A stretch of DNA of 64,000 nucleotides from an uncultured bacterium (GTDB lineage Bacteria > Patescibacteriota > Minisyncoccia > Phycocordibacterales > Phycocordibacteraceae): assembly GCA_963851445.1 (NCBI GenBank), contig CAWKPH010000002.1, forward strand, positions 25,716 through 89,715, read 5' to 3'. Of the stretch, positions 6,682 through 51,132 are shown one piece after another; position 1 is the stretch's first letter, and every line of letters begins with the position of its first letter. The translations under genes and the position numbers were made by a program. The notes under the pieces are model-generated. The model made no database searches and was not told the origin of the DNA. It was given only the letters and a program-made list of their open reading frames with translations.

Positions 6682-7131
6682 ATGGAATCATCACCTGATA
6701 CGAACGGTCCTAGTCCACGTACAAGGAAGGAAGATACAAAGTCAAAGCGCGCTTTAAGCTATGCGGCCGTTTCGGTTGCATTATTGCTATTGATAATCCT
6801 TACTGTCGGTGGATATATTCTACGCTCGTCATATTACCAACAAAAGCCAGCTGTAGATGTACAGACACTAAATCATTTTGTATGTCGTAGCTCGACATAT
6901 TCGATCTCCGTCTTCAATAATGGAAATGCGACGGGCGTATCGCTGGATGCGCCATCGGGACCAGTGACATTCTTAGGTCAAATTGGACCGGGTAACTATT
7001 TCACTCCCGAATCAGTTATCCCGTCTAGCTATATATCGTATTTATCGGAGCTGGGGACGTGCAAAAACTCCGATGGCTTGACGTTTTATCAAGTCTACAA
7101 GAGCGTTTCTACGAGCACATTGTCTCATTGA
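6682..7131 (+). CDS. hypothetical membrane-anchored protein (low-GC ORF embedded between GC-rich segments)
   Basis: 149 aa with one N-terminal TM helix (LSYAAVSVALLLLIILTVGGYIL) and then a Ser/Thr-rich domain. The composition matches the host-like low-GC DNA. Confidence 0.4.
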   Translation: MESSPDTNGPSPRTRKEDTKSKRALSYAAVSVALLLLIILTVGGYILRSSYYQQKPAVDVQTLNHFVCRSSTYSISVFNNGNATGVSLDAPSGPVTFLGQIGPGNYFTPESVIPSSYISYLSELGTCKNSDGLTFYQVYKSVSTSTLSH

Positions 7132-8115: not shown

Positions 8116-8427
8116 TCAGAATTGCCTCGAATTAGGCGAAACATTCTCGAAATGTTCTATGGAGAAATCAATGCCCGGCTCCTCCTCTAGATAAACTCTG
8201 AGGCGCGTAACGCCGATCACAATACGATCGAGTGTGTAATGGGCCCCAAGCTTGAGGTAGCGATCAACAGCTTCGAGCCCGAGTATCCTCCAGCTGTATC
8301 GGATTGTTGCGCCCGGTCGAGTTCGAAAGTCCATTACTGGACCCAGTAGCATTCGAGGTCTACGCGGCGTGATGAAATCACACGCGGACTGATCCCCAAA
8401 GATTTGGGCAAAATTACCATCAGCCAA
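8116..8427 (-). CDS. hypothetical protein (103 aa)
   Basis: ORF only; no recognisable motif. Confidence 0.25.
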   Translation of the reverse strand: MADGNFAQIFGDQSACDFITPRRPRMLLGPVMDFRTRPGATIRYSWRILGLEAVDRYLKLGAHYTLDRIVIGVTRLRVYLEEEPGIDFSIEHFENVSPNSRQF

Positions 8428-8539
8428 AACTTATTCTCCCAGATGAACAAACGCAGAGAAAAGAATAGCATATACTGAATAAATTTCCAACATTCTCCCA
8501 AAAAGCCAATGTAATTGCTAAATCAGCTCATTATGCTGA

Positions 8540-8577
8540 AAAAGTGACACTTAAAAGTCTGTTTTCGTGTCACTTTT
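8540..8577 (-). terminator. probable terminator for 8666–9688
   Basis: 11-bp perfect inverted repeat AAAAGTGACAC…GTGTCACTTTT with a T-run on the minus strand. Confidence 0.45.
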
Positions 8578-8665
8578 GTCACTATTTGAGGCCTATTGGA
8601 TTCAGTACCGTACCCGGTACCCTTATTCTCAGAGAATTCCAGCGGTGAATGCAAAAAAATCTCAA

Positions 8666-9688
8666 TCAGTTAACAATTACCGTAGAGGTCACTGTAGCCG
8701 ACTGACCACTTGCGTTTGATACGGTAAAGATCGGCGCATACGTGCCTGCATTCTCATAGGCATGTGTAAACGTTGCTGAGGATTGAACACCTCCAGCATT
8801 AGCGGATTCGAGTTGATAGGGAACTGCAACCTCGTCTCCCCACCGTACTGAATACTGTAAATTAGTTGAGGCTCCAGTGTCTCCCACATTCACCGTCCAT
8901 GTTCCCGTTTCTCCAGGTGAAAGTTCGGCTGGGCCCTGAATTCCGTTAATTGTAAGTGGTAACCCGGGAATTCCGTTTCCTGAAGTCACTGTAAATGTCT
9001 CACTATTGCTTGTCCCATTCGCATTCTCAACTGAAACAGTGTACGTTCCGGGCCCTACCAAGCGTACATATTCTGGACACATAAGATCACCCGTACAATT
9101 TGGTCCTATCGAAGAGGGAACTGTGAAGGTTAATGTTTCAAGTGGATTTCCGCAATTAAGATTTGACGTGCACATGATATTCATGGTTGAAGTGACTGGA
9201 ATATTCGATATGGGGCCACCTCCAAAGAGGATTGTGTTATTTGAAGTAAAGCCATATCCGGTAATAGTTACCTGGGTGCCCACACTACCAGACGTAGGAT
9301 ACAGTGACTGAATGCTAACTGACGAATTAGGCGGCAGGGAACTACAGGTTAAGTTCTCAATAACCCCTCGGGTAATTGGGCCAACATATCCTGTTGGATT
9401 GACTCCATTCGCTTCCTGAAAACGCTTAACTGCGGCAAAAGTCAAAGGGCCAAAAACACCTACAGGAGAATAAGGAAAATAGGCTTTTTCTTGCAGATAT
9501 GTTTGAAGCGTCGTTACCTCATTGCCTGACGAGTAATCGGTAGAACCGTAGTAGATATCATTAGTGAGCGATATGCAGGCAATCGGAGGTGTCATAACTT
9601 GAGCGTGGGCAATTCCCTGAGGCGCTGACACGAAAACAAGTCCTGTCATTAGCAATATTCCAATATATTTTTTCATAGGTGTTGTCAT
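8666..9688 (-). CDS. secreted protein with a peptidoglycan-binding (PG_binding_1-like) domain followed by IPT/TIG-like beta domains
   Basis: Signal peptide (MKKYIGILLMTGLVFVSAPQGIAHA). 'LQTYLQEKAYF…GVFGPLTFAAVKRFQEANGVNPTGYVGPIT' is the PG_binding_1 signature. 'GTYTVSVENANGTSNSETFTV' resembles IPT/TIG repeats. Paralog of 12310–13785. Confidence 0.7.
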   Translation of the reverse strand: MTTPMKKYIGILLMTGLVFVSAPQGIAHAQVMTPPIACISLTNDIYYGSTDYSSGNEVTTLQTYLQEKAYFPYSPVGVFGPLTFAAVKRFQEANGVNPTGYVGPITRGVIENLTCSSLPPNSSVSIQSLYPTSGSVGTQVTITGYGFTSNNTILFGGGPISNIPVTSTMNIMCTSNLNCGNPLETLTFTVPSSIGPNCTGDLMCPEYVRLVGPGTYTVSVENANGTSNSETFTVTSGNGIPGLPLTINGIQGPAELSPGETGTWTVNVGDTGASTNLQYSVRWGDEVAVPYQLESANAGGVQSSATFTHAYENAGTYAPIFTVSNASGQSATVTSTVIVN

Positions 9689-12309: not shown

Positions 12310-13785
12310 GTGAGGTATAAGACAGGCATACTAATGAGGCATATTATGAAAAAAACAGCATACCTAAGCGTTATTTTTACTCTTGCAGCAGCCGGCCTAG
12401 CATCAACGGCCAATGCGCAGACGACCTATGTCTACCAGACACCGGGATACTCAACCCCTGCCTACGGGGTGGCGCCAGCATACAACGAAGTCTCTCCGTA
12501 TGCTGAGCTAGCACCAACCTCAGGCTGCATTGATTTGACCAATTATCTTGAACTCGGGTCAACCGATTCGGAAACTATAGGCCAAGTCACTCTTCTCCAG
12601 GAATTCTTGAACCGAACAGGATACCTTAGTGGCGTATCGGGTATTTTTGACACGGGTACCTACGGCGCAGTTATTAACTATCAAAATTCCCATGGTATTC
12701 CTCCAACAGGAACGGTGGGGCCCATAACTGGAGCCTCCATTAACAGTCAAAGCTGCGGCGCATCAGTTGAGCCGATAAACTACAATCCAACCCCATATCA
12801 GAATACAAATCCATATCAGTACAACCCTGGCTACTACGGTAATCCTATTTCGATCTCCTCACTCTCAACTAACTCAGGATATGCAGGCGAAATCGTAACG
12901 ATATATGGTTCAAACCTCTCAGGATTTAACGATGAGGTTCATATAGGGAATTCAACCGTTGCGCCCAATAGTACCTCGAATGATTCACTTTCATTTGTTG
13001 TACCGTCATTCAGCTACGGAACCTATGCCGTATACGTCTCTAACAGTTTTGCTACAAGTAACTCACTTCAATTCACCGTCATCGGCGGTAATAACAACTG
13101 TTACTCAGGAGAAACTTACCAGTGCAATTGCGTAACACCTCTTGTCTACAACTACGGCTCTTCGTATAACTACAACCCGAGCTATCCAAATCAATGTGGC
13201 AATGGATACTCGAGCGTATCGCTCAACTCTCTTAGTAGCACCTATGGATATCCAGGAGAAAGTGTGACCATCTTTGGCTCCGGATTCTCAAGTGATAACA
13301 GCGTCTACTTTGGAAACGAAACGCTCACCGATGTCTACTCAAGTGATAATGGTACGCAACTGACATTCACTGTCCCATCAAATTATCCTTCAGGAACCGT
13401 TAGCATTTCGGTTTCAAACGGAAATGGCTCAACAAGTAATTCGCTCACATTCACCGTAAATGGCTCAAACAACTGCAGTTCATATAACTCGTACAATTCG
13501 TACAACAATGACTGTATATGGAACGGTCAAAGCGGACAGCCAAACATCTCGTATATCTCACCCGCACAGTCCTACCCTGGATCTAACGTAACAATCGAAG
13601 GCTCCAACCTTTCGGAAGGAGACACAATCTACTTCAATAATTCAAGCGTCGTAAGTGGATCATCCTTCGACAATGGCACGCAGATGAATTTTACTGTTCC
13701 ATACCTCAACCCAGGAACATATAGCGTCTATGTAACGAATCAAAATAGGGAATCAAGCAATATTTTCAGCTTTACCATTGAATAA
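12310..13785 (+). CDS. secreted protein: PG_binding_1-like domain plus three IPT/TIG-like repeats
   Basis: Signal peptide. 'IGQVTLLQEFLNRTGYL…GTYGAVINYQNSHGIPPTGTVGPIT' is the PG-binding signature. Three ~90-aa repeats each end in '…SNSLxFTV'. Paralogous to 8666–9688. Confidence 0.7.
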   Translation: MRYKTGILMRHIMKKTAYLSVIFTLAAAGLASTANAQTTYVYQTPGYSTPAYGVAPAYNEVSPYAELAPTSGCIDLTNYLELGSTDSETIGQVTLLQEFLNRTGYLSGVSGIFDTGTYGAVINYQNSHGIPPTGTVGPITGASINSQSCGASVEPINYNPTPYQNTNPYQYNPGYYGNPISISSLSTNSGYAGEIVTIYGSNLSGFNDEVHIGNSTVAPNSTSNDSLSFVVPSFSYGTYAVYVSNSFATSNSLQFTVIGGNNNCYSGETYQCNCVTPLVYNYGSSYNYNPSYPNQCGNGYSSVSLNSLSSTYGYPGESVTIFGSGFSSDNSVYFGNETLTDVYSSDNGTQLTFTVPSNYPSGTVSISVSNGNGSTSNSLTFTVNGSNNCSSYNSYNSYNNDCIWNGQSGQPNISYISPAQSYPGSNVTIEGSNLSEGDTIYFNNSSVVSGSSFDNGTQMNFTVPYLNPGTYSVYVTNQNRESSNIFSFTIE

Positions 13786-19438: not shown

Positions 19439-20353
19439 ATGAAACTCTCTCCTGTAATAGCTGTACTCATCGTCATTTTTGTACTTTTCATAGCAGGGCT
19501 TTTCTACTTTGTATTCACACCCAAGGCAGCCGCACCGACAGTTGCGACGAGTACGCCACCTGCGCTGCAAAATAGCATCACGTACTCGTGTGACGCAGGA
19601 ACCGTTAAAGCTTCGTATGAGAATAATTCAGTCATGATTCAACTCTCTGATGGACGTGCATTCACGCTCCCACAAACTCAATCGGGTTCAGGCATACGTT
19701 ACGAATCAAGCAGTACGCCCGATGATATTGTTTTTTGGAGCGAGGGAAACAATGCCTTTATCACGGAAAACGGTACAACCACCTATAGCAATTGTGTCGC
19801 GAATACCGGAACAACAAATTCAAGCACCGCTTCAAGCACCAGTACATTTACTGATCAAGGTAAGACGTTCAGTTTCGTCTACCCGACCCAATTCATCGTT
19901 TCTGGAAATGGCGTCGGGTATTCGACCGACTGGATGCTAAACACGCAGACCTCGGGCATCGTGCTAGCAAAGCTCACGATCCCAAGCTCTTTTCAATCGG
20001 AGACTAATTTTGTTGGTGCAACTCTTACCGTTGGCACAAGTGCAGATCCAACTGCGCTATTACAATGCAAAACTTCTGCAGGAAGCGGTGGGCCAGCTCC
20101 GGAGAAAAGTACTGTCATAATTAACGGTATTATCTTTACGAAATTCGTTTCTACAGATGCAGCTGCAGGTAATGAGTATATGACCACGAGCTATCGTACG
20201 ATTCGAAATAACCAATGCTACGCGCTCGAATATACTATTCATTCAGCGAATATCGAAAATTACCCACCAGGATCAGGGATTAAGACCTTTAACCAGATCC
20301 AAGTACAGAGCACACTCGAGAATATCGTACAAAGCTTCAGATTCTTACCATAG
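19439..20353 (+). CDS. membrane-anchored protein with an N-terminal MliC-like (lysozyme-inhibitor fold) domain and a C-terminal domain shared with 23823–24518
   Basis: TM anchor, then 'ITYSCDAGTVKASYENNSVMIQLSDGRAFTLPQTQSGSGIRYES…VFWSEGNNAFITENGTTTYSNC', the MliC pattern (Y.C…SASG.RY…W.KG..A…C). The C-terminal 'FSFVYPTQF…QCYALEYTIHSANIENY…IVQSFRFLP' is paralogous to 23823–24518. Confidence 0.55.
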   Translation: MKLSPVIAVLIVIFVLFIAGLFYFVFTPKAAAPTVATSTPPALQNSITYSCDAGTVKASYENNSVMIQLSDGRAFTLPQTQSGSGIRYESSSTPDDIVFWSEGNNAFITENGTTTYSNCVANTGTTNSSTASSTSTFTDQGKTFSFVYPTQFIVSGNGVGYSTDWMLNTQTSGIVLAKLTIPSSFQSETNFVGATLTVGTSADPTALLQCKTSAGSGGPAPEKSTVIINGIIFTKFVSTDAAAGNEYMTTSYRTIRNNQCYALEYTIHSANIENYPPGSGIKTFNQIQVQSTLENIVQSFRFLP

Positions 20354-26550: not shown

Positions 26551-26669
26551 AATTCGTTCAAGCGGCTTCTTCGGAAGCCGTTTTTCTTAATCTTTTTAGC
26601 CCCACTCCTCTCTGTAATTATCCTCACGTGCCTACTAAAAATAGCCATTATTGACGTATAATTAAAGGT

Positions 26670-29450
26670 ATGGCCATCGAAGGAGTAACAAAACCTCTTA
26701 ATTCTCCCGAAGAAGAGCTCGCGCATCTACGAGAACAGATTGCAACTAAGGAGCAAGAACTTAAGGCGCTTAGGCAAGAACAACCGCGCGCTATTGTTGC
26801 GCACGAACAGATTTTGAATCATCGCTATCAACCCGCAGAGGATATTCTCACTCCCTCGTATCGACTTTCTGAAGAGCAGGCTAGTGAAATAGCACTAAAT
26901 CTTGAGCCTGAGAGCGATGACGAGACGATGGTTGAACTACGAAATATCATGGAAGAAAAAGGCGTAAAAAATGCGTTTTCGGTGCTCGAGAAACTCAATA
27001 GCCCTCATCTCGAGGACGACTTCCACCGTTTTCTAGTCCAGTACGTCATAGCGGGGATGCAAGTAAAGGGTTTCAGCGAGAGTCAGCCAACATGGAAGGC
27101 GCTCCATGTCACTCTCTATGAAATCGCGCTGCCTGAGCCTGACCGCCAAAATGATGATGGGCGTGCTAAGACTCTCAAAGAACTTATTTCAGCGATGGAG
27201 CAATTCTATTCCGGTATGCTCTCCGTTGGCGAGGCGTATGCAGGCGAACCTGCCTATTTTTCTCTTGAGCTTGCGGTACCAATAGATCGTTCACATCTTA
27301 ATTTTTATGCTGCCATCCCAAATGGTCGTCGTGATCTTTTCGAAAAACAACTTCTTGCGATTTTCCCGCATGCCCACATCACGCCGCAACCAAATGATTA
27401 CAATGTCTTCGTTCAGGATGCTTATTCAGTTGGCTCAACTGCGCAACTCACTCAGCGTCCGATGCTGCCGCTTAAGGACTACAACGATTTCGATTACGAT
27501 CCTTTGAATTCTATTTTAAACGCGTTTGCGAAGATCGGTGCAGAAGATGAGGGTGCTGCCCTTCAGATAGTCATCGAACCCGCAGGCGATCGCTATATCA
27601 GGCATTACCGTCGGGTTCTTGAAGAACTTCAAAAAGGAGTGCGTCCTTCCACTGCGCTTTCGCTGCCTGAATCGCTTGCCGGAGAACTTATTCGTGAGGC
27701 AGGGACACTTTTTGGAAAGCAAAAAGAAGTTAAGCGCGAAGAGGCAGACCAGGGAGTAATAGAGTTAGTGGAGAAAAAAATGGCAGCACCTGTTGTTAGC
27801 ACGAATATACGCATTGTCGTCTCTTCCAAGAGCCCATCCCATGCAACGCAGATTCTCGATGAGCTTGAATCCTCGTTCAATCAGTTTGAGAATACGCGAG
27901 GAAATAGGGTCATATTTAAAAGGGCACAGAAAGCGAGTGCAAGTCAACTTTTTCATAATTTCACGTACCGGATTTTTTCTCATGCGGCAGAGATGCAGCT
28001 TTCTCTACGTGAACTTACAACACTCTTTCATTTCCCCCCAAAGGGTATCGAATCTTCGCCGCATCTCAAGCAATCTCGTTCAACAGTTGCGGCAGCCCCT
28101 GTGGAGCTTCCGCGTGAAGGTCTCACACTTGGAATAAATACCTATCGTGGTCAATCAACGGAGGTTAAGTTGGCAGATGCTGATCGCTTGCGCCACCTCT
28201 ACGTTATTGGACAGACCGGAACTGGAAAAACTGGATTCCTCAAAACTCTCATTGAACAGGACATCCGTAATGGTGCCGGCGTCTGCTTTATCGATCCGCA
28301 TGGAAACGACATTCTCGACGTGCTTGCAAGTATTCCGCCTGAGCGCTATGAGGACGTTATCTATTTCGATCCTGCTTATATTCCACGGCCATTTGGTTTG
28401 AATCTTCTTGAATACGATCCAATGCATCCTGAGCAGAAGACTTTTATTGTAAATGAAATCCTTGCAATCTTCAGGCGTCTCTACGGAGATGTGCCAGAGT
28501 CAATGGGTCCTGCATTCGAACAATACTTCCGCAATGCAACGTTACTTGTTATGGAAGATCCTGCATCCGGTTCAACGATGATGGATATTGGTCGTGTACT
28601 TTCTGATGCGAATTTCCGGGCCTTAAAACTTTCGCGCAGTATGAATCCAGTTGTAAACCAATTCTGGACTGAAATTGCGACCAAGGCGGGTGGCGACGCT
28701 TCGCTTGAAAATATTGTGCCCTACATCACAAATAAGTTCGATGACTTTACGGCTAATGATTTTATGCGCCCGATTGTTGGACAACAGAATTCCTCATTCA
28801 ATTTTCGAGATATTATGGATTCGAAAAAAATACTTCTCGTCAATCTCTCAAAGGGACGTCTCGGGGAACGTAATGCAAACCTCCTCGGTCTCGTTTTAGT
28901 CGGCAAGATCTTTATGGCGGCACTTTCACGCGCTGACGATCCACGCGCTAATTTTCCACCATTCTATCTGTATATAGATGAATTCCAGAACATTACGACC
29001 GACAGTATCCCGGGTATTCTTTCGGAAGCTCGTAAATATAAACTTTCTCTTACGATTGCACACCAGTTCCTTGCACAGATTGATGAAAAGATTCGCGATG
29101 CAGTTTTTGGTAATGTTGGTTCGATGGCGGTGTTCCGCGTGGGAGAGGAGGATGGTGAATTCTTTTCAAAGCAGTTCGCCCCAGTATTTGAAGCATCTGA
29201 TTTTGTAAATATACAGAATCGTGAAGCATATCTACGCATACTTGCGGGGGGAGTTCCGCAGAAACCTTTCAACATTAAAACGCTTGATTTGGGTCAGGGA
29301 AATCCTGCACAAGTAGATGATCTACGTGAGTTGTCCTATCTCACGTATGGGCGTGACCGTGCTACAGTAGAAGGGAACATACGAGCTCGATATCTTTCTA
29401 ACGCAACACAGTCACCAGTACCCCTTGAACAGCCTTATCACTATTCGTAG
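26670..29450 (+). CDS. large soluble P-loop ATPase of the FtsK/HerA superfamily with a TraD/TraG/VirD4 (type IV coupling protein)-like C-terminal region
   Basis: Walker A 'YVIGQTGTGKTGFL', Walker B 'FYLYIDEFQNI', and a coupling-protein-like 'LSLTIAHQFLAQIDEKIRDAVFGNVGSMAVFRVGEEDGEFFSKQF'. The ~470 aa N-terminal region is unrecognised. No TM segment seen. Confidence 0.6.
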   Translation: MAIEGVTKPLNSPEEELAHLREQIATKEQELKALRQEQPRAIVAHEQILNHRYQPAEDILTPSYRLSEEQASEIALNLEPESDDETMVELRNIMEEKGVKNAFSVLEKLNSPHLEDDFHRFLVQYVIAGMQVKGFSESQPTWKALHVTLYEIALPEPDRQNDDGRAKTLKELISAMEQFYSGMLSVGEAYAGEPAYFSLELAVPIDRSHLNFYAAIPNGRRDLFEKQLLAIFPHAHITPQPNDYNVFVQDAYSVGSTAQLTQRPMLPLKDYNDFDYDPLNSILNAFAKIGAEDEGAALQIVIEPAGDRYIRHYRRVLEELQKGVRPSTALSLPESLAGELIREAGTLFGKQKEVKREEADQGVIELVEKKMAAPVVSTNIRIVVSSKSPSHATQILDELESSFNQFENTRGNRVIFKRAQKASASQLFHNFTYRIFSHAAEMQLSLRELTTLFHFPPKGIESSPHLKQSRSTVAAAPVELPREGLTLGINTYRGQSTEVKLADADRLRHLYVIGQTGTGKTGFLKTLIEQDIRNGAGVCFIDPHGNDILDVLASIPPERYEDVIYFDPAYIPRPFGLNLLEYDPMHPEQKTFIVNEILAIFRRLYGDVPESMGPAFEQYFRNATLLVMEDPASGSTMMDIGRVLSDANFRALKLSRSMNPVVNQFWTEIATKAGGDASLENIVPYITNKFDDFTANDFMRPIVGQQNSSFNFRDIMDSKKILLVNLSKGRLGERNANLLGLVLVGKIFMAALSRADDPRANFPPFYLYIDEFQNITTDSIPGILSEARKYKLSLTIAHQFLAQIDEKIRDAVFGNVGSMAVFRVGEEDGEFFSKQFAPVFEASDFVNIQNREAYLRILAGGVPQKPFNIKTLDLGQGNPAQVDDLRELSYLTYGRDRATVEGNIRARYLSNATQSPVPLEQPYHYS

Positions 29451-29452
29451 GT

Positions 29453-32452
29453 ATGAGCGAACGACCTCCACAACCACCAAGTAGTCCAGCAGAAAGAAAG
29501 GCGAAAGCTGTTGATGAATATCTTGCTGCTTCTCGCGATAGCATCACAGACCTTGAAAATGCTGCCCGAGCCCGAACGCCAGGAGCTTTGAAACATAAAG
29601 AAGGAGACCCGGGATACGTAGATCACGAGGGAGAGGTTTTGAGACAGGAAAATGAGCTGCGCGATATGGAAAAGAAATTTGGTGATTCAGAATCACGTAG
29701 GGAGCGGCGTGCGGAACTCATGGAAAAGGTAAACCAGCTTCAAGCACTCGCTGAAGAACGATGGAAAAATAGAACATCAGCACAAGCCACCCCCCCAGCC
29801 GAACGTTCTCCCTATACGACGCAACATAAACCCGCAATGCTTAGCCCCGAACAGATTGCGGAAATACGAGAAAAGTTTCATGAACTCCATCAAAATGATT
29901 TATTCAAAAAAGGGTATGACGGACCCCCTAATTATCCAGTTCCAGCAGTTATCGAAGGTCAATCAGCAGCAGAAAAAAGGAAAAATCGTGTAGAAGCGAG
30001 AAAAAGAGACCTGAAGACCCCGGACGTAATCGCATTACCTGATCAGAGTATTAAAGCAGGGTCTCCTGAAGTCTCAAATTGGAATCCGACCCTTGTGCGG
30101 ATACAGGGTGGAGGAAAAGTCGAATCACTTAGATCAAGACGCAAAAGAGAGTCAGCTCAAGAAGCTCAAGAAAAAGAACGCAAAGCGATGGAGCAAGCCG
30201 TCACGTTAGCTAAAAATGCCGGCGTTGAACAAGAGCGAACCGCAATGCTTTCTGTGGATACTGAGTATAATAACGCATATCGAGATTTCACCAAGACAAA
30301 TTCAATATGGAAACAACTTCGAGGTAAACAAGACCAGAAAGGATTACTTAAGCTTGCGGAATTAAAAAAATCACGAGACGAATCAAGGGTTATATATTCA
30401 AAGAAGCTGAAAGAATCGGTGCGAGCTCGTCTCGAGACTCCGGAACGTGATGCAGCGCTGCGTGAGAAGTATGAACGTATGAAAGAAAAGGCCGGTGTAG
30501 CGAAGGGATTTGTTGATGAAAAAGGACGTCCATACACGTATGAATCTTTCAAGAAAAGCGAATTAGATAAAATTGTCGCTCGTTATAACGGAATTGTGCA
30601 ATATAGGGAGATAGTTGAACCGGCAGTGAAGCGTGAACAAGCTGCTCGTGTCGAAGGTATGGAAGCCAAAGAAAGAGGTCTGGTAGGTAAGGTTTGGCAG
30701 TGGGGAACCCGAAAGATACGCGAAGGCAATGAAAATCTAGAAGCTGCTATCTATGAAAACATTGTCGGGAAAAGCATCTTTGGTAAAAAGATTTCAGAAA
30801 AGAGCGCAAAATCGCTCTCAAAGGTTGGAGCACGTTCGACTCGCCTTTTAGCAATAACCGCAGCAAGCGCAGTTGCGGGTGTCACTCTTGGAAGTGTCGG
30901 CCTAGCGGCTGCAGGTCTGTATTCTTCTCAAAAGATTCTTCGCGGTTTTGCATCAATGGGCATAGGCTTTGGCGCCGGTAAGGCATATGAAGCTACTGGT
31001 GGAAAAAAGGTTAGAGAAAACCTTCAGAATTCACGGCGAAAGGATATCGAAAGCACTCAAGATATTGCGTCGCAGGAAAAAGCAACGCGAGAGGGATCAG
31101 AAGAAGCGATCCAAAGAAAAACAGAAATGGTTGGAGGCGTTACGACACTCCTTACTTCATTTGGATTCACTCTTGCATCTGCCCATGAAGCTGCAATGCA
31201 TGCATCCGTTCAAAAGGCGGCCCTACATGCGAAAGACGCCTTAAATCCTCAAGGATACCAAACTGAAATTCTTACGATCGGCCAGAAAGTGGGAAATGTA
31301 AATATTAATGATGCAGACAAGCTCATCGGACATTTTGGAGAAAAGCTTGCGCATGATTTTCCTCAAAGTGCTCAACAACCTCCTGCAGTGAAAGCATTTC
31401 TTGAACTCTTGCATAAAGAAGGTGGCAAATCGCTACTTGACGCTAAGGGGGAAAACTATGCCTCAATGAAATTGGGGTTTTTGGATACTCAACATTTAGT
31501 AAAGGGCATGCCTTGGAGCATGCAAATGAATCCAGGGGATCAACTTAGCCTCGACCCCAAGACTCATGAAATTGTCATTGACCGTCCTGGACATCCGGAA
31601 TTCCACAGAGTGTTGTTTGATAACAAAGGACATACTCCTGAAGTTACTGCAAAGGAGGCCGTACAGGCTGCTGTTAAGCATTCCCCAGAAACTCAGGTTA
31701 CTGCGCCAAACACTCCCACCGCCACATCTCCTGAAACTCCCACACCTCCAGTTGATCACCCTACTTCTACGCCGACGGATGCTGATGCGCAGGTAAAGAG
31801 TATTGAGGCAAATGAAATTGGTCGCGGCGTCGGGACACCGCATGAAGTAGTACCGCCACAAGCACCACCTGAGACCCCGAATCCAGTGGTTGCGGAACCT
31901 GCCCCCGTACATTCAGCAGAAATCGTTTCCCCTGCAGTAGATCAAAGTATTCCGAATTCACCCGCTGACATACTAATTCATAGCCAAAACTGGGCTGATT
32001 ATAAAAGCCTCCCATCAGTGGAAGCATTTACAGAACCAGTGATAAACGGGAGTCAAAATGAGATTGTGTTTAGAGGAGAGCTGTTTGATCTAATGAAGCA
32101 GACCGGAATTGGACCCGTAGCAAATGAAGATATAGCTACCTACGTATCTCGTGCAGCCGACGCATTAAAGAACGGTTTAGTACACCCTCTCCACCTTATT
32201 AAAACTCCTGATAACCATTTCATCATGAGAGGGGTAGATATGGACGCCCAAATTATCATGGGTAATGAGTATATACAGGAACAGGCCCTAAACAATATAA
32301 ATGTACAAGTTCTTGTCGAAGACCCTACTCAACATTCTTATATTGTATTAACGAATCATCCCGCAAGTAGTGGAGTCGAGGGATTGGACAGAATTGAGTC
32401 GGTGGACGCATCCAAAATAAAACTCAATGGAAATAACCAGACCATCTTTTAA
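29453..32452 (+). CDS. 999-aa Lys/Glu-rich coiled-coil protein with a central TM hairpin, Pro/Thr-rich stalk and a C-terminal globular domain
   Basis: The ATG is 3 nt after the upstream stop. Long heptad-like charged stretches. Hydrophobic segments 'LLAITAASAVAGVTLGSVGLAAAGLY' and 'FASMGIGFGAG'. 'TAPNTPTATSPETPTPPVDHPTSTPT…PPQAPPETPNPVVAEPAPV'. Confidence 0.5.
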   Translation: MSERPPQPPSSPAERKAKAVDEYLAASRDSITDLENAARARTPGALKHKEGDPGYVDHEGEVLRQENELRDMEKKFGDSESRRERRAELMEKVNQLQALAEERWKNRTSAQATPPAERSPYTTQHKPAMLSPEQIAEIREKFHELHQNDLFKKGYDGPPNYPVPAVIEGQSAAEKRKNRVEARKRDLKTPDVIALPDQSIKAGSPEVSNWNPTLVRIQGGGKVESLRSRRKRESAQEAQEKERKAMEQAVTLAKNAGVEQERTAMLSVDTEYNNAYRDFTKTNSIWKQLRGKQDQKGLLKLAELKKSRDESRVIYSKKLKESVRARLETPERDAALREKYERMKEKAGVAKGFVDEKGRPYTYESFKKSELDKIVARYNGIVQYREIVEPAVKREQAARVEGMEAKERGLVGKVWQWGTRKIREGNENLEAAIYENIVGKSIFGKKISEKSAKSLSKVGARSTRLLAITAASAVAGVTLGSVGLAAAGLYSSQKILRGFASMGIGFGAGKAYEATGGKKVRENLQNSRRKDIESTQDIASQEKATREGSEEAIQRKTEMVGGVTTLLTSFGFTLASAHEAAMHASVQKAALHAKDALNPQGYQTEILTIGQKVGNVNINDADKLIGHFGEKLAHDFPQSAQQPPAVKAFLELLHKEGGKSLLDAKGENYASMKLGFLDTQHLVKGMPWSMQMNPGDQLSLDPKTHEIVIDRPGHPEFHRVLFDNKGHTPEVTAKEAVQAAVKHSPETQVTAPNTPTATSPETPTPPVDHPTSTPTDADAQVKSIEANEIGRGVGTPHEVVPPQAPPETPNPVVAEPAPVHSAEIVSPAVDQSIPNSPADILIHSQNWADYKSLPSVEAFTEPVINGSQNEIVFRGELFDLMKQTGIGPVANEDIATYVSRAADALKNGLVHPLHLIKTPDNHFIMRGVDMDAQIIMGNEYIQEQALNNINVQVLVEDPTQHSYIVLTNHPASSGVEGLDRIESVDASKIKLNGNNQTIF

Positions 32453-32454
32453 TT

Positions 32455-32757
32455 ATGCCCACGACCACTAAATTTGATAACATAGTTGACGCTTTAAACC
32501 TCACCGAGCTTTCCCCTGAGGAACAGGAAGAGATTCTGCTTGACCTCAACGATCTTATCTTCAAGGGCTCGGTTGTGCGCTTGATAGAGAGAATGGATGA
32601 TAAAACGCGTGAAAAATTTGGAAAACTTATTGAGCAAGATGCCTCAGGAGAAGAAATTGATACATTTATCAAAAAGAACGTGCCAGATGCCGATGAAGCT
32701 GTCAAGGACACTATACAAGAGCTGACAGATGATATACTGGCCGTGACCAGCGAATAA
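32455..32757 (+). CDS. small acidic protein (100 aa)
   Basis: Starts 3 nt after the upstream stop. No recognised family. Confidence 0.4.
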   Translation: MPTTTKFDNIVDALNLTELSPEEQEEILLDLNDLIFKGSVVRLIERMDDKTREKFGKLIEQDASGEEIDTFIKKNVPDADEAVKDTIQELTDDILAVTSE

Positions 32758-32767
32758 ATAAAATATT

Positions 32768-33367
32768 ATGAATGATCCGCAATCAGGCAATACGGGTTCT
32801 ATAACGGGAACTGGAGTTGCTGTCGCACTCGCCGTAATCGTTGTACTGGGCCTCATATTCTTTGGGCCACAGTTATTTAATTTAATAAACAACAATAGTA
32901 CAAGCACCGAAACCACCTCGAACGCTTCAAGTACCGCAGCCATTATGCAAAACCAAAATCAGCCCAACAATTTATCAACCTCGACTAGCAATTTAGGACC
33001 AATTCCTACCAATGTCACTACACTTGAGGGTAAGGATATTGTGGTTGGAACCGGAACGATTGCGCAACCAGGAGATTCCGTAACCGTCCAGTATGTAGGG
33101 GCACTCACCAACGGAACTGTTTTTGATGCCTCGGCGAATCACGGTACGCAGGGCTTCACCTTTACTCTTGGGGCTGGACAGGTAATCAAGGGTTGGGACG
33201 AAGGAGTCGTCGGTATGAAAGTAGGCGGGGAGCGTGAGTTAGTGATTCCACCCTCACTCGGCTACGGAGCTCAGGCCAATGGTCCAATACCCGCCAACTC
33301 AACGTTGGTATTTGAAATTGAATTAGTGAATGTTCAGGCTCCAGCTGCAACTTCTACAGCTCAGTAG
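32768..33367 (+). CDS. FKBP-type peptidyl-prolyl cis-trans isomerase with an N-terminal membrane anchor
   Basis: 'VTVQYVGALTNGTVFDAS…FTFTLGAGQVIKGWDEGVVGMKVGGERELVIPPSLGYG…LVFEIELVNV' is the FKBP fold signature. Confidence 0.8.
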   Translation: MNDPQSGNTGSITGTGVAVALAVIVVLGLIFFGPQLFNLINNNSTSTETTSNASSTAAIMQNQNQPNNLSTSTSNLGPIPTNVTTLEGKDIVVGTGTIAQPGDSVTVQYVGALTNGTVFDASANHGTQGFTFTLGAGQVIKGWDEGVVGMKVGGERELVIPPSLGYGAQANGPIPANSTLVFEIELVNVQAPAATSTAQ

Positions 33368-45776: not shown

Positions 45777-46172
45777 ATGATCCGCGTTACTCAACAAAGG
45801 CCGCCCGCGCACATCCAGCGGCACGGCGAGCACGACTGCACCACGATTGTTCACATCCATGAGCACACTCGCTCATTCGGCCTCAAACGGGCACAATTTC
45901 TTGGTCACAGACAAGTGGGCATCATCAAAGCGACGCTCAATGCCTTGACCGCCATTCCCTGCGAGGGTGAACTTAAGATTACCGCCACGAGAAAATCTGG
46001 GGCATCCGCCATCGGCGACATCTACACCTGGGATCCACATTCTTTGCGCGTCGCCCAGGAAGCCGTGTCACTCATCCGGGATGATCTTCGAATTTTGATG
46101 TCTCTTGACCTCGGCGAGCTCCAGCTGCAGATCAGTTGTTCCCTCGAAAGAAAACTCAAGGTCGCCGCCTAG
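45777..46172 (+). CDS. hypothetical protein (131 aa), GC-richer than neighbours, immediately downstream of tRNA-Ala
   Basis: ORF with an upstream TTGACA-16-TATTGT and a GC-rich terminator downstream. No family recognised. Confidence 0.3.
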   Translation: MIRVTQQRPPAHIQRHGEHDCTTIVHIHEHTRSFGLKRAQFLGHRQVGIIKATLNALTAIPCEGELKITATRKSGASAIGDIYTWDPHSLRVAQEAVSLIRDDLRILMSLDLGELQLQISCSLERKLKVAA

Positions 46173-46192
46173 GACTAAACACCCTGACGTGC

Positions 46193-46224
46193 AAAGCCGC
46201 CCAGGCTCTCGGGCGGCTTTTTGT
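46193..46224 (+). terminator. rho-independent terminator
   Basis: AAGCCGCCC-AGGCTCTC-GGGCGGCTT followed by TTTTG. Confidence 0.6.
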
Positions 46225-46359
46225 TCTCACTTTCCCTCAAGTCCATGGGTTCGAGGATTTGGCAACTTAATTGAAAGAATTTTATTCCCATCATTTGCGA
46301 GAGTTTTCCTAAAGAGTTCCAAGGAAGCCCTTAGACGTTCGCCTGCTATACTACCCCAT

Positions 46360-47820
46360 ATGCTAAAACGTGAGGAAGAGAAACTCCTTGACTTCATACA
46401 CACCGAGCACAAGAAAGGCTACACCAAGAAGGAGATACGAGAAGCACTTATAGCTAATGACTTCTCTCCTAAGGACATAGACCCTTCTCTCAACAAGGTA
46501 TTTAAAAGAAAGAGAAGACACCATACACAAAAACTCCTCGTACCCCTCACACTCCTTCTCTTTGTCCTCATAGCAGGCTGGTGGCTCTACACCCACCATG
46601 CGTCATCCAGTGACACACAGAATACTCTGGGATCTACACTTGCTACCCCTGAGGGGAATACTGGATCTTCTGGTCCTACAGAAGAATCAATCACAACGCA
46701 ACCAATCGGCTTCGCAAGCCTTGATGGCGGTACAACTGGTGGAAATCCAAACAATATATGTCATGTGAGCTCCATGACTGAAGCGGCTCTTGCTACCTGT
46801 GCTGAAGCATCCAATTCAAGCACTGTGGTTTTTGACACTCCCGGTACGATTGTCCTCACCTCACCTATAGACATAACCTCAAATAAGACGATAGAAGGGC
46901 CAGTGACAATAGAAGGACAATCCAATCTTTTTCAAATACGAGGACAGAGTAACATCATCATACGAAATATCTATTTTGAAAATCTTCCAGGACTTGTTGT
47001 TCCTCCCTCGATTAGTGGGCTGTCAGCAGCCAGTACTTGTCCAGATACTTCTACATATCTGACGAAGGGTCTCGGAGGCTCTAATCTTGAAGGATGCGGA
47101 AACGAAATACGCATATTGGGTGGAGTTACTTCCGATAGTCAGAATATATGGATAGATCACGATTCCTTTAGAGCTTGCGGTGATAAATGTATCGCGGTTG
47201 GTGTTGGAACCAGCGGTCTAGATCCTTCTACTGGAAAATATTACAGTGGAACTTTAGTATCAATATCAAATAGCATTTTTAAAGACAGTTGGTTTGCTGT
47301 CGCTATTGATACTGCTACTGGAGGACCAATGGGCGCCATCCCAATCAATGAACAACCAAACTCCATGGTAACGCTGTACGGTAATTTATTTAGTGAAGTA
47401 AATAGACGTAGTCCCCGTGTCTCCGGTGCCGGTTCTTGGGCACACGTCTTTAACAACGTCATTCAATACTGGGGTGGATTTGACAGCAGTACGGGTGATG
47501 GATATGGATTCGGACCTTCTTCAAATGATTCAGCGCAATTGTTACTAGAAGATAACTACCTTCGTGCGTGGCCAAGTCCAAATGCCTGTCAAGAAGCAGA
47601 CGATCTTATCAACCAAAGATGCAAGGTAACCGATCCAATTCAATCTAAAGGAGTCCCTGCAGGTTACATACGAGCAACAAACAACTTTTTAGCAAACAGT
47701 GCTACCGATCAGGAAAACGGTCCCTCAGTGGTATTCACTCCGCCCTACAGTTACAGTCCGCTCGACCCATTAACCACACTCAATTCAGTTATCGCTAATG
47801 CTGGAGTTATTACAAATTGA
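46360..47820 (+). CDS. membrane-anchored right-handed beta-helix protein of the pectate lyase (PL1-like) family
   Basis: TM helix 'LLVPLTLLLFVLIAGWWLY'. 'IWIDHDSF', 'NRRSPRVSGAGSWAHVFNNV' (the R-P-R…HV-NN pectate-lyase motif) and repeated 'I.G..N..I.N' beta-helix rungs. Start taken at ATG 46360; the ORF track's 46105 extension overlaps the upstream terminator. Confidence 0.6.
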   Translation: MLKREEEKLLDFIHTEHKKGYTKKEIREALIANDFSPKDIDPSLNKVFKRKRRHHTQKLLVPLTLLLFVLIAGWWLYTHHASSSDTQNTLGSTLATPEGNTGSSGPTEESITTQPIGFASLDGGTTGGNPNNICHVSSMTEAALATCAEASNSSTVVFDTPGTIVLTSPIDITSNKTIEGPVTIEGQSNLFQIRGQSNIIIRNIYFENLPGLVVPPSISGLSAASTCPDTSTYLTKGLGGSNLEGCGNEIRILGGVTSDSQNIWIDHDSFRACGDKCIAVGVGTSGLDPSTGKYYSGTLVSISNSIFKDSWFAVAIDTATGGPMGAIPINEQPNSMVTLYGNLFSEVNRRSPRVSGAGSWAHVFNNVIQYWGGFDSSTGDGYGFGPSSNDSAQLLLEDNYLRAWPSPNACQEADDLINQRCKVTDPIQSKGVPAGYIRATNNFLANSATDQENGPSVVFTPPYSYSPLDPLTTLNSVIANAGVITN

Positions 47821-50118: not shown

Positions 50119-51132
50119 CTAACTACCAGGATAGTACTTCTTTAGAAGCGCGACATGCTCCGCATAGGTATCGGAACAATGGAATCTGCCATAGGAGTCA
50201 TGGAAATAGTAGAGACAGGAAGTTTGCACAGGATTAAGTGCTGCAAGTACTGCCGCTACTGATGGTTCAGCAATAGGCCCAGGTGGAAGCCCTGGATTCA
50301 TGTAGGTGTTGTAAGGAGACTTAATGTATTTATCTTTTGGTAGTACTTCCTGCCACCAATTTCCCTCTTTATTCTCACCCATTGCGTATTGAAGCGTTGC
50401 ATCAATCTGTAGATTCATGTTGTCGAATAGTCGGTTCCAGATAATGCCCGAGATAATGCGCATATCAGTTGGACCTGCGGCTTCACGCTCAAGAAGCGAG
50501 GCCACGATCAAAGTCTCGTTGAGAGGCACAAGAGACGCTGTTGTTGGACTATAGTGGTCAGCAACTGTCTCGTCGAAGCGTATGCCCATTAAAGCTGCGA
50601 CGTTGGAAGGAGTCATTGAATCATCAACGACATACGTTCCAGGAGCAAACATCCCGTCTGTGATTCCTGGTGTCTGTGCATCTACCGCTGCAAGGAATTG
50701 CTTTTGTTGCGTTGTATTCCAATTGAGTGCCCGTGTAAGCTGTGAAAGTATTTCTTCTTTGCGATATCCTGGAAGGACGGTAATTAGATGACCATCTGCG
50801 GCAGCAAGTGATTGATATAAGCTTGTATTATCAATGAGCGCAGCGATCTGAATCAAAACCTCTCTCACATCCCCTACAGAGGCTGTAAGAGTATTGTTTT
50901 GAGTCTGCTCATTGAAAAAAGCATCAGCCTTTGGATTATCGACAATGCTTTTTGTCGCCGGATCTACTGAGACAGGAAAGACTGCAACAGTGGTCGGGGA
51001 ATTTGCGGGCTGCAATAGCGACATGCTTTCCAAATGAATGTGTGCAATCTCAATTTGCGGCAGGATAAAGGTTGTACAGCCTCCAATAATGCAAAGGAGG
51101 GCAACTACGGTAAGAATTCGCGCCCTATCCAT
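50119..51132 (-). CDS. mltG: endolytic murein transglycosylase MltG/YceG family
   Basis: TM anchor, 'IVASLLEREA', 'ISGIIWNRL…LQIDATLQY', 'SPYNTYMNPGLPPGPIAEPS', 'LYYFHDSYGRFHCSDTYAEH'. Start taken at the internal Met (MDRARIL). The ORF track extends to 51231. Confidence 0.75.
   Translation of the reverse strand: MDRARILTVVALLCIIGGCTTFILPQIEIAHIHLESMSLLQPANSPTTVAVFPVSVDPATKSIVDNPKADAFFNEQTQNNTLTASVGDVREVLIQIAALIDNTSLYQSLAAADGHLITVLPGYRKEEILSQLTRALNWNTTQQKQFLAAVDAQTPGITDGMFAPGTYVVDDSMTPSNVAALMGIRFDETVADHYSPTTASLVPLNETLIVASLLEREAAGPTDMRIISGIIWNRLFDNMNLQIDATLQYAMGENKEGNWWQEVLPKDKYIKSPYNTYMNPGLPPGPIAEPSVAAVLAALNPVQTSCLYYFHDSYGRFHCSDTYAEHVALLKKYYPGS

What the first reader, a model, noticed from the sequence alone, without database searches (positions are those of the whole stretch)
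26670..33367. VirD4/TraD-like soluble ATPase paired with a 999-aa coiled-coil membrane protein, a small acidic protein and an FKBP: candidate secretion/DNA-transfer or cell-surface apparatus
Four genes are separated by 3, 3 and 11 nt, which implies co-translation. The 926-aa ATPase has clear Walker A/B motifs and the 'IAHQ…Q' coupling-protein-like region of the FtsK/HerA/TraD/VirD4 clade. It has no TM anchor, and its ~470-aa N-terminal region is unrecognisable. Its partner is a very large charged coiled-coil protein whose N-terminal half is predicted cytoplasmic; it has a central double-TM hairpin, a Pro/Thr-rich extracellular stalk and a ~180-aa terminal globular domain. No VirB4, relaxase or pilin gene is adjacent, so this is not a canonical T4SS or conjugation locus. 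Coupling-type ATPases with giant surface proteins could mediate substrate or DNA translocation, or host-cell attachment in an episymbiont. Alternatively the ATPase could be a defence-type HerA-like motor.
Basis: partly seen in the sequence, partly recalled or inferred. Interest (0 to 1): 0.7.

Follow-up and report, generated by a model that had tools for sequence, protein, structure and literature searches.

The report
Orphan VirB4-like motor with variable membrane partner
The four genes are real, and three of them belong to a conserved, undescribed module of ultra-small (Patescibacteria/CPR) bacteria: a motor ATPase from the type IV secretion family, a giant fast-evolving membrane protein and a small acidic protein, whose function is still inferred rather than shown.

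Summary
Four + strand ORFs (926, 999, 100 and 199 aa) are separated by 2, 2 and 10 nt in a housekeeping chromosomal context of a Paceibacteria-type CPR genome.

The "unrecognisable" N-terminal 470 aa of the ATPase resolves into two parts:
- Residues 12-134 are a fused copy of a ~140-aa protein that other CPR classes encode just upstream of the ATPase gene.

Residues 480-910 are an intact VirB4/VirD4/HerA-type motor. By sequence it is nearest to conjugative coupling proteins. Most relatives carry an N-terminal TM helix, which this lineage has lost.

The key result is a conserved four-part set: motor, ~140-aa adaptor, ~100-aa acidic DUF5663 protein and a large membrane protein with a conserved juxtamembrane/TM core. 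It recurs in two different gene orders in distant CPR classes (12 and 9 loci). A reciprocal test starting from DUF5663 gave 4 of 4.

The FKBP is a clade-specific addition.

Best reading: an orphan membrane apparatus derived from the type IV secretion lineage. Its substrate is unknown. It is not FtsK, not a canonical conjugation locus and not a defence system.

Novelty: new variant of a known kind.

The parts
26560..26583 (+). Terminator-like hairpin after the upstream SAICAR synthetase gene. It probably marks the 5' boundary of the transcription unit.
   Evidence: 10-bp stem, 4-nt loop and a T-run. The number of such sites in the region is no higher than in shuffles, so this is weak evidence.
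26670..29450 (+). 926-aa soluble ATPase: fused adaptor, DUF8128 (VirB4-NTD-like) domain and VirB4/VirD4-type motor.
   Evidence: more than 2500 homologues, the top 120 at 70-82% identity; 5289 representative clusters (50% identity) at E<=1e-30. AF2 model with pLDDT 87.
26703..27071 (+). Residues 12-134: the adaptor module (coiled coil plus a small helical domain). It is homologous to a ~130-148-aa protein encoded separately just upstream of the TM-anchored ATPases in other CPR lineages.
   Evidence: A profile of 12 stand-alone upstream proteins matches residues 12-134 end to end (E 7e-6). It also matches the N-termini of nearly all ~910-aa relatives (E 1e-12 to 1e-4). Searches show the stand-alone gene.
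27087..28079 (+). Residues ~140-470: the DUF8128 domain, with a fold like the N-terminal domain of VirB4/TrwK.
28107..29399 (+). Residues 480-910: the P-loop motor domain. Walker A lies at 28209-28232 and Walker B at 28968-28991.
29453..32452 (+). 999-aa large membrane protein ('BIG'): a charged cytoplasmic N half, a central TM region, a Pro/Thr-rich segment and a C-terminal domain. It evolves fast.
   Evidence: It is only ~26% identical to positional orthologues whose ATPases are 62-78% identical. It shows no detectable similarity to the 587-aa protein in the same slot of L040, whose ATPase is 82% identical. No Pfam family matches it or its orthologues.
30161..31231 (+). Residues 237-593 of BIG: the only conserved part, made of the juxtamembrane helical region plus Gly-rich TM segments (TM region about 30842-31183).
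   Evidence: BLAST and profile matches among window, L001, L004, L007, L027 and L070. hhalign against the equivalent region of the Moranbacteria-type BIG proteins gives probability 88% and E 2.8e-6 over 164 columns. TM-rich profiles can inflate this score.
31868..32377 (+). Residues ~806-975 of BIG: the C-terminal, presumed extracellular, globular domain.
   Evidence: 28% identity to L007 residues 854-1026 (E 7e-9). No PDB sequence match. The fold was not determined.
32455..32757 (+). 100-aa acidic DUF5663 protein. It follows a BIG-type protein wherever it was found.
32768..33367 (+). 199-aa membrane-anchored FKBP-type peptidyl-prolyl isomerase. It is presumed to be an extracytoplasmic foldase and is a clade-specific neighbour.
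   Evidence: FKBP_C, E 3.6e-33. TM helix at 8-42. It is present after DUF5663 in L001, L004, L007, L027, L070, L084 and L085. It follows the ATPase directly in L003. It is absent from arrangement B loci.

Best explanation
The 926-aa protein belongs to a Patescibacteria-wide family of hexameric-type P-loop motors from the T4SS ATPase lineage.

What is shown:
- The core has the two-domain VirB4 layout: a DUF8128 domain with the VirB4 N-terminal fold, then an intact motor domain.
- By sequence the motor is nearest to conjugative coupling proteins.
- In most CPR classes the motor has its own N-terminal TM helix, and a ~140-aa cytoplasmic protein is encoded just upstream. In the window's class that protein is fused to the motor's N-terminus and the TM helix is gone.
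- The motor, the adaptor, the ~100-aa acidic DUF5663 protein and a large membrane protein with a conserved juxtamembrane/Gly-rich TM core form a gene set that is kept in two different orders across distant CPR classes.

What is inferred:
- The four proteins work together as a membrane apparatus.
- Here the anchorless motor docks on the cytoplasmic, charged half of the 999-aa protein, through the fused adaptor and/or the VirB4-like N domain. This would parallel how VirB4 sits on VirB3 and the VirB8 tails.
- ATP hydrolysis then drives movement of a macromolecule at the membrane. That could be export, assembly or turnover of the variable surface-exposed half of the big protein, or passage of a protein or DNA substrate through its TM core.
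- DUF5663 is a small adaptor, regulator or substrate.
- The membrane-anchored FKBP in this clade would fold what emerges outside.

The substrate and the direction of transport are unknown.
For: Architecture:
- AF2 models have pLDDT 87 and 84.
- The full length aligns collinearly with TrwK in Foldseek (E 5.5e-15).
- Catalytic residues are invariant in 54 sequences.

Fusion and anchor loss:
- The profile of the stand-alone upstream protein matches residues 12-134.
- The ~800-aa relatives start with TM helices.

Conserved module:
- Order A is ATPase, BIG, DUF5663. It occurs in 12 loci whose ATPases are 40-78% identical to the window's, with differing flanks.
- Order B is BIG, DUF5663, adaptor, TM-ATPase. 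It occurs in 9 loci.
- The reciprocal test, starting from four DUF5663 proteins only 16-21% identical to the window's, found order B in all four.
- The BIG cores of the two lineages align by hhalign at 88% probability, E 2.8e-6.

Membrane and envelope link:
- BIG proteins show a strong charge asymmetry across the TM region (K+R 0.12-0.20 on the N side, 0.03-0.10 on the C side in the window's clade).
- Full-length homologues in Bacillus phages sit directly after membrane proteins and a peptidoglycan metallopeptidase.

The published survey of Patescibacteria found 5713 VirD4-type homologues in 2918 genomes. Only 148 lie near virB4, and the authors raise exaptation for other functions (PMC12102498).
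Against: - No experiment or complex prediction links the proteins. The link rests on gene order alone.
- About 19 Paceibacteria loci carry the fused ATPase between genes I read by eye as secY-adk-map and ndk. They have neither BIG nor DUF5663 within 8 kb, so the partners are not always adjacent and may be absent.
- The two closest relatives (82% identity: L040, L083) have a ~590-aa protein in the +1 slot and no DUF5663. L040's is unrelated in sequence, while L083's keeps weak similarity to the BIG core.
- L003 lacks both BIG and DUF5663.
- BIG homology across classes depends on a TM-rich profile match.
- Topology comes from hydropathy and charge bias only.
- No pore-forming or known secretion component was recognised in BIG.
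- FKBP adjacency could be plain synteny.
Confidence: 0.45

Rival explanations
1. The ATPase is the coupling protein (T4CP) of the canonical Patescibacteria T4SS, which is encoded elsewhere in the genome. It delivers substrates to that machine. The neighbouring genes would be substrates, accessory factors or unrelated.
For: - By sequence the motor is nearest to T4CPs. TraG-D_C is above gathering, and the SXT_TraD, TOL_TraD and CD1115 VirD4-like models are the best NCBIfam hits, though all fall far below their cut-offs.
- The closest plasmid relatives are coupling-type ATPases. One lies beside a replication-relaxation protein and a VirB4-sized ATPase.
- T4CP genes often lie far from virB4 (PMC12102498).
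Against: - T4CPs lack a VirB4-type N domain, and this family has one.
- The family keeps its own membrane partner, adaptor and small protein in two gene orders.
- Only 148 of 5713 Patescibacteria T4CP homologues are near virB4. The homologue in Ca. S. epibionticum was dispensable while the T4SS was essential (PMC12102498). Wang et al. also report no recognisable coupling protein in that T4SS (PMC10633639). I could not verify that the dispensable homologue is a DUF8128 protein.
- No relaxase is present in the window.
Confidence: 0.2
2. It is a DNA translocase of the FtsK-HerA superfamily with a housekeeping role, such as chromosome segregation at division, DNA uptake or DNA export. The big protein would be its membrane tether.
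For: - Superfamily membership is established.
- Conservation is very high: 70-82% identity among the 120 best homologues.
- The family is CPR-wide.
- Many Paceibacteria place the gene after what I read by eye as secY-adk-map.
- There are weak NCBIfam hits to the archaeal DNA-import ATPases CedD and CedB (E 2.6e-4 and 9e-3, P-loop region only).
Against: - No FtsK multi-TM N-terminus, no NurA-type nuclease partner and no recognised DNA-binding domain was found; a gamma domain was not specifically searched for.
- A hypervariable, surface-exposed partner is not expected for a segregation motor.
- If the dispensable Saccharibacteria homologue is of this family, an essential housekeeping role is unlikely.
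Confidence: 0.15
3. The adjacency has no functional meaning. The four genes are packed together only because the genome is compact, and the ATPase works alone.
For: - Gene spacing is tight throughout the window.
- Broad synteny (sigma factor, DUF5667, VIT1, TGT, UvrB) is shared with relatives, so some co-occurrence is inherited.
- About 19 loci have the ATPase without these neighbours.
Against: - The same components recur in a different order, with different flanks, in a distant class.
- The adaptor is physically fused to the ATPase in one class and separate in others.
- DUF5663 directly follows a BIG-type protein in 20 of 21 loci.
- For the FKBP alone this rival remains plausible.
Confidence: 0.12
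4. It is a defence-type HerA-like motor (an anti-phage system).
Against: - The matches cover only the shared ATPase domain.
- There is no nuclease, Sir2 or other effector partner.
- The family is near-universal and highly conserved in CPR within housekeeping contexts, unlike patchy defence islands.
Confidence: 0.03

Closest known systems
VirB4 (TrwK/TraB/PrgJ-type T4SS ATPase), including VirB3-VirB4 fusions
   Same: - Two-domain layout: an alpha/beta N domain followed by a RecA-like motor with a helical insertion.
- Most family members have one or two N-terminal TM helices, which from general knowledge resembles VirB3-VirB4 fusions.
- The motor works at the cytoplasmic face of a membrane complex.
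   Different: - No match to VirB4 sequence models. CagE_TrbE_VirB does not hit, and VirB4_plasma reaches E 0.043 on the P-loop only.
- Identity to TrwK is about 10%.
- The gene is not next to VirB3, VirB6, VirB8 or pilin genes.
- Patescibacteria have a separate bona fide VirB4 near dnaA/dnaN (PMC12102498).
Type IV coupling proteins (VirD4/TraD/TraG/TrwB, and soluble ~400-aa T4CP-like ATPases of Gram-positive and archaeal plasmids)
   Same: - The motor-domain sequence is nearest to these: TraG-D_C above gathering, 27-34% identity over the whole domain.
- An N-terminal TM anchor is present in most relatives.
   Different: - T4CPs have no VirB4-like N domain.
- T4SS-DNA_transf and TrwB_AAD_bind score below gathering.
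- No relaxase or T4SS lies nearby.
- The family has its own conserved partners (adaptor, DUF5663, BIG).
Type VII secretion (EssC/EccC with EsaA or EccE and ~100-aa WXG100 proteins). This is an analogy only.
   Same: - Gene-set logic: a membrane-anchored FtsK-HerA-superfamily ATPase, a large membrane protein, a ~100-aa acidic helical protein and small cytoplasmic accessories.
   Different: - There is one ATPase domain rather than three, and no FHA or DUF domain.
- DUF5663 shows no WXG motif and no match to WXG100 structures.
- No homology of BIG to EsaA or EccB-E was detected.
phrog_5156 and 'ATPase domain protein' of large Bacillus/Lysinibacillus phages
   Same: They are full-length homologues of the DUF8128 + motor core. 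phrog_5156 matches residues 149-905 at E 3.8e-71. tblastn covers 83-94% of the core at ~20% identity.
   Different: They are phage-encoded and of unknown function. In phage YungSlug the gene follows membrane proteins and a peptidoglycan metallopeptidase. No DUF5663 or BIG was seen there.

Membership tests
VirB4 T4SS ATPase | N-terminal alpha/beta domain with the VirB4 fold | tested here: met
VirB4 T4SS ATPase | C-terminal RecA-like motor with Walker A/B | tested here: met
VirB4 T4SS ATPase | Match to curated VirB4 sequence models (PF03135 CagE_TrbE_VirB, VirB4 NCBIfams) | tested here: not met
   PF03135 gives no hit. VirB4_plasma reaches E 0.043 and 11.5 bits against a cut-off of 590.
VirB4 T4SS ATPase | Encoded with VirB3, VirB6, VirB8 or pilin genes | tested here: not met
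   None was found among the window ORFs scanned, nor in the called genes of related loci.
Type IV coupling protein (VirD4/TraD/TraG) | Motor domain matching T4CP models | tested here: inconclusive
   TraG-D_C scores 25 bits against a gathering score of 22, so it is met. T4SS-DNA_transf (12.5 against 20.1) and TrwB_AAD_bind (13.7 against 20.5) are not met. The TraD NCBIfams score 39-46 bits against cut-offs of 366-648. The best plasmid BLAST hits are T4CP-type.
Type IV coupling protein (VirD4/TraD/TraG) | N-terminal TM domain directly followed by the nucleotide-binding and all-alpha domains, with no large N domain | tested here: not met
   The window protein has no TM helix. A ~330-aa VirB4-like domain precedes the motor.
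Type IV coupling protein (VirD4/TraD/TraG) | Association with a relaxase or a T4SS | tested here: not met
   No relaxase or T4SS genes occur in the window or in related loci.
FtsK/SpoIIIE chromosome translocase | FtsK_SpoIIIE motor signature, multi-TM N-terminus and gamma (KOPS-binding) domain | tested here: not met
HerA (NurA-associated or defence-associated) | HAS-barrel N domain and a nuclease or effector partner gene | tested here: not met
   HerA_C gives E 0.04 and HerA_antiphage gives E 0.064. The N domain matches VirB4 and not HerA. No NurA, Sir2 or nuclease gene lies adjacent.
DUF8128 family (Pfam PF26449) | Match to PF26449 | tested here: met
   The precomputed PF26449 annotation sits on the identical protein P0001 and on all listed homologues. 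The local Pfam copy returned no PF26449 hit.
DUF5663 (PF18908) | Match to PF18908 | tested here: met
   The local score is 23.4 bits against a gathering score of 23.7, so borderline. The identical protein P0272 carries PF18908, and a profile of 17 family members gives E 1.5e-30.
FKBP-type PPIase | FKBP_C domain | tested here: met
   E 3.6e-33 with a full-length domain at 99-187. NCBIfam FKBP models match but stay below their equivalog cut-offs.

The most novel reading that the evidence does not exclude
DUF8128 ATPase + ~140-aa adaptor + DUF5663 + giant variable membrane protein could constitute a previously unrecognised, Patescibacteria-wide membrane translocation apparatus. It would descend from the VirB4/VirD4 lineage but work independently of the canonical T4SS. 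It would export or assemble rapidly evolving surface proteins used for host contact, or exchange protein or DNA with the host cell. The family may also represent an intermediate form between VirB4 and coupling proteins.
Probability: 0.3. Interest if true: 0.8.

Novelty: new variant of a known kind. Interest (0 to 1): 0.6.

Why it matters
Patescibacteria make up a large share of bacterial diversity and live attached to other cells, yet the machines they use at the cell surface are mostly unknown. A published survey counted thousands of orphan "T4CP homologues" in these genomes and left their role open.

This analysis gives that orphan family three things:
- an architecture: a VirB4-like N domain plus a coupling-protein-like motor;
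- a set of conserved partners: an adaptor, DUF5663 and a large fast-evolving membrane protein;
- a clear evolutionary event: adaptor fusion together with loss of the TM anchor.

That turns an annotation puzzle into a testable hypothesis. The tests include interaction assays, Tn-seq or deletion in lineages with genetic tools (if they carry the module), and cryo-ET. The family also bears on how VirB4 and VirD4 ATPases are related. The hypervariable partner protein is a candidate determinant of host or phage interaction.

Tried and rejected
- A homologue search with the whole 999-aa protein returned nothing, probably because low-complexity words swamped the candidate list. I used positional orthologues instead.
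- The exact-sequence lookup of the window's own ATPase found no record.
- The DUF8128 profile found no PDB chain by sequence. Neither did the C-terminal half of the big protein.
- Fetching plasmid R388 by accession, to obtain TrwK and TrwB sequences, failed.
- Pfam gave nothing for ten BIG-slot proteins, the stand-alone adaptor, or the flanking proteins of arrangement B.
- A profile of the BIG core from the window's clade does not detect the +1 proteins of L005, L032, L040, L046 or L066. Homology of those is therefore unproven, and they are counted only as positional or architectural equivalents.
- The DUF5663 profile hits tandem protein A (SpA) Ig-binding domains (E 1e-8 summed over repeats, about 0.3 for single domains). 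I treat this as a shared helix-start motif (L-P-x-x-x-EEQ) and at most a hint of a small helical bundle, not as homology.
- FtsK, defence HerA and a canonical conjugation locus were considered and rejected (see the membership rows).
- The promoter scan gave no signal above chance.
- I did not model the big protein or DUF5663.

Full report
**1. Observation**

The four ORFs exist as described. All are on the + strand: 26670-29450 (926 aa), 29453-32452 (999 aa), 32455-32757 (100 aa) and 32768-33367 (199 aa). They are separated by 2, 2 and 10 nt. A terminator-like hairpin closes the upstream SAICAR synthetase gene.

The surrounding 64 kb is ordinary chromosome. It holds a sigma factor, a DUF5667 protein, a Pif1 helicase, VIT1 and a holin-like protein upstream. 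Downstream lie TGT, UvrB, a two-component pair, UvrA, UvrC and Ddl. ATP synthase genes and tRNAs follow further on. No VirB4, relaxase or pilin family was found among the ORFs scanned. The homologues' names and the CPR-typical DUF5667 and DUF5663 families place the window in the Paceibacteria/Parcubacteria part of Patescibacteria. The best genome matches are Kaiserbacteria-like MAGs.

**2. The ATPase**

- Pfam finds DUF87 on the P-loop and TraG-D_C on residues 764-834. NCBIfam's best partial hits are TraD and VirD4 models, all far below their cut-offs.
- The protein is unusually conserved. More than 2500 homologues were scored, and the best 120 are 70-82% identical and ~910 aa long. All carry the precomputed domain PF26449 (DUF8128).
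- An exhaustive search of 50%-identity representatives gave 5289 clusters at E<=1e-30.
- Only the nearest relatives align from residue ~10. Most relatives are ~800 aa, align to residues ~140-910 and begin with one or two TM helices.
- Some relatives carry very long Pro/Ala-rich C-terminal tails, reaching 2006 aa, that end in a conserved GEVYVD..GNV motif.

**3. The "unrecognisable" N-terminus resolves into two parts**

First, the TM-anchored versions have a ~130-148-aa gene immediately upstream. A profile built from 12 such proteins matches residues 12-134 of the window protein end to end (E 7e-6). It also matches the N-termini of nearly all ~910-aa versions. The window protein is therefore a fusion of that partner with the core, and the TM helix has been lost.

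Second, an AF2 model (54-sequence alignment, pLDDT 87) shows a compact alpha/beta region from ~140 to 470, followed by the motor.
- Foldseek puts full-length TrwK/VirB4 first, with ~900 aligned columns.
- No ATPase-domain chains appear in that list, so the match is to the VirB4 N-terminal domain.

By sequence, however, the motor is closest to coupling-type ATPases. tblastn against plasmids finds ~400-aa "T4SS DNA-binding domain/DUF87/TraM-recognition" proteins at 27-34% identity over the whole domain. One example, on a Bacillus plasmid, lies next to a replication-relaxation protein and a VirB4-sized ATPase.

The family thus combines a VirB4-type layout with a T4CP-like motor. It fails the sequence and gene-context criteria of both families, so I do not file it as a member of either.

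**4. The partners**

The 999-aa protein has a highly charged N half (20% K+R), a hydrophobic core at 464-491 with weaker segments up to 577, and a K/R-poor, Pro/Thr/Ser-rich C half. Positional orthologues of 584-1260 aa share this asymmetry.

These orthologues diverge extremely fast:
- Identity is ~26%, confined to the juxtamembrane and TM core, even where the ATPases are 62-78% identical.
- No similarity at all is detectable to the 587-aa protein in the same slot of L040, whose ATPase is 82% identical. The 599-aa protein of L083, the other 82% relative, keeps only weak similarity to the core.
- None has a Pfam domain.

DUF5663 is a ~100-aa acidic protein. A profile built from the first matches, searched over six-frame ORFs, finds it in 17 of the loci held at that point.

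**5. Is it a module?**

Within the window's clade the order is ATPase, BIG, DUF5663, FKBP. It recurs in L001, L004, L007, L027, L070, L084 and L085. In L085 the flanks differ from the window's.

ATPase, BIG, DUF5663 without FKBP also occurs in L005, L032, L046 and L066. There the ATPases are only 40-63% identical to the window's, and L066 has the TM-anchored type.

In a distant lineage (Moranbacteria-like by source names) the order is BIG, DUF5663, adaptor, TM-ATPase (L053, L055, L056, L060; L052 has insertions).

The reciprocal test was decisive. I started from four DUF5663 proteins only 16-21% identical to the window's. All four lie in exactly that second order, after a 1127-1322-aa protein and before a ~142-aa protein and an 827-835-aa DUF8128 ATPase.

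The central regions of the BIG proteins of the two lineages align by hhalign at 88% probability (E 2.8e-6, 164 columns). The aligned stretch spans the juxtamembrane helix, the Gly-rich TM segments and the charged loop. TM-rich profiles can inflate such scores.

Two gene orders, changing flanks and a physical fusion of one component together argue for a functional unit of four parts.

Exceptions exist:
- About 19 Paceibacteria loci have the fused ATPase after what I read by eye as secY-adk-map and before ndk. They lack the partners within 8 kb.
- L003 has ATPase followed directly by FKBP.
- L040 and L083 lack DUF5663.

FKBP is therefore a clade-specific neighbour and not a core part.

**6. Mechanism**

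The steps that are shown:
- an intact motor;
- VirB4-like architecture;
- membrane anchoring in most lineages;
- a fused adaptor here;
- a conserved gene set that includes a membrane protein.

The steps that are inferred: the anchorless motor docks on the cytoplasmic half of BIG and powers a membrane-level transaction. That transaction could be export, assembly or turnover of BIG's variable outer half, or passage of a protein or DNA substrate. DUF5663 would act as an adaptor, regulator or substrate, and the anchored FKBP as an outside foldase in this clade.

Two further observations fit an envelope-level role. Homologues in large Bacillus phages (phrog_5156, E 3.8e-71) follow membrane proteins and a peptidoglycan metallopeptidase. 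The published survey of Patescibacteria T4SS found 5713 VirD4-type homologues, of which only 148 lie near virB4. It notes that the homologue in a genetically tractable Saccharibacterium was dispensable although the T4SS is essential, and it raises exaptation (PMC12102498; PMC10633639). I could not confirm that those homologues are DUF8128 proteins.

No paper in the library mentions DUF8128 or DUF5663.

**7. Verdict**

- The ATPase family itself is already catalogued, as a DUF and as "T4CP homologues". Its VirB4-like N domain, the adaptor fusion and the four-part module appear to be undescribed.
- I rate it a new variant of a known kind. Interest is 0.6. Confidence in the proposed mechanism is moderate to low. 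Confidence in the anatomy is high.

**8. Caveats**

- Gene calls in related loci are my own crude longest-ORF calls.
- TM and topology statements rest on hydropathy and charge only.
- MAG taxonomic labels are taken as written. Some are implausible, for example "Bdellovibrionales" and "Gammaproteobacteria".
- The identities of secY, adk, map, ndk and RNase J in other loci were read by eye and not tested.

Noticed in passing
window 4100-8650: A ~4.5-kb stretch has raised G+C (53-54% against 44-49% elsewhere). Its longest ORF is 223 aa, and the ORFs overlap on both strands. No Rfam match appears even at E<=0.01, and the 213-aa ORF at 4852-5493 has no Pfam hit. This is unusual for such a compact genome and remains unexplained. 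It could be a degraded or foreign segment, or an unmodelled RNA.
   Followed up: partly
window 50215-50304: ARAGORN calls a 90-nt tRNA-Gly(GCC) that Rfam's tRNA model does not report at gathering score. It could be an intron-containing tRNA or a false call. It overlaps the start region of the YceG-like gene's neighbourhood.
   Followed up: no
P0174, P0178, P0187, P0169, P0190 (relatives, not in the window): TM-anchored DUF8128 ATPases carry 400-1200-aa Pro/Ala-rich, probably disordered, C-terminal tails. The tails end in a conserved motif, K-L-x-x-G-E-V-Y-V-D-x-x-G-N-V. The tail is reminiscent of TraD-type C-terminal recognition tails, but its function is unknown.
   Followed up: no
L053 11798-14377(-), L055 6017-8422(-), L056 10359-12842(-), L058 6070-8292(-), L080 2156-4444(-), L088 10469-13135(-), L091 10434-13037(-): In arrangement B loci a conserved ~740-890-aa protein is encoded convergently just downstream of the ATPase. 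It has a conserved cytoplasmic N domain, a TM helix near residue 440-600 and a repeat-like C domain (motif YLTYLY.LD...QIYRYPR). It matches no Pfam family. It could be a further lineage-specific component or just synteny.
   Followed up: partly
L092 (Bacillus phage YungSlug) 5731-8301; also phages LysYB1/2, SP-10, Goe26, G: Large Bacillus and Lysinibacillus phages encode full-length homologues of the DUF8128 + motor core (phrog_5156). In YungSlug the gene overlaps the end of a peptidoglycan metallopeptidase gene and follows two membrane-protein genes, which looks like a mini T4SS-like cluster in a phage.
   Followed up: partly
L008-L037 (many Paceibacteria loci): In another Paceibacteria clade the fused ATPase sits at the end of what looks like the secY-adk-map block. 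An Ndk-like protein, a 3-TM protein and an RNase J-like beta-CASP protein follow. These identifications were made by eye, not by tool.
   Followed up: partly
window 32455-32757 and alignment A3: The DUF5663 profile matches tandem staphylococcal protein A Ig-binding domains (E 1e-8 on multi-repeat chains, ~0.3 on single domains). The match runs through an L-P-x-x-x-E-E-Q helix-start motif and is probably motif-level similarity only.
   Followed up: no
window 8666-9688(-) and 12310-13785(+): Two predicted surface proteins combine a peptidoglycan-binding domain (PG_binding_1) with PKD or IPT/TIG repeats. An MliC lysozyme-inhibitor-domain protein lies at 19439-20353, and a pectate-lyase-fold protein at 46105-47820. 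These are envelope or host-interaction candidates unrelated to the finding.
   Followed up: no
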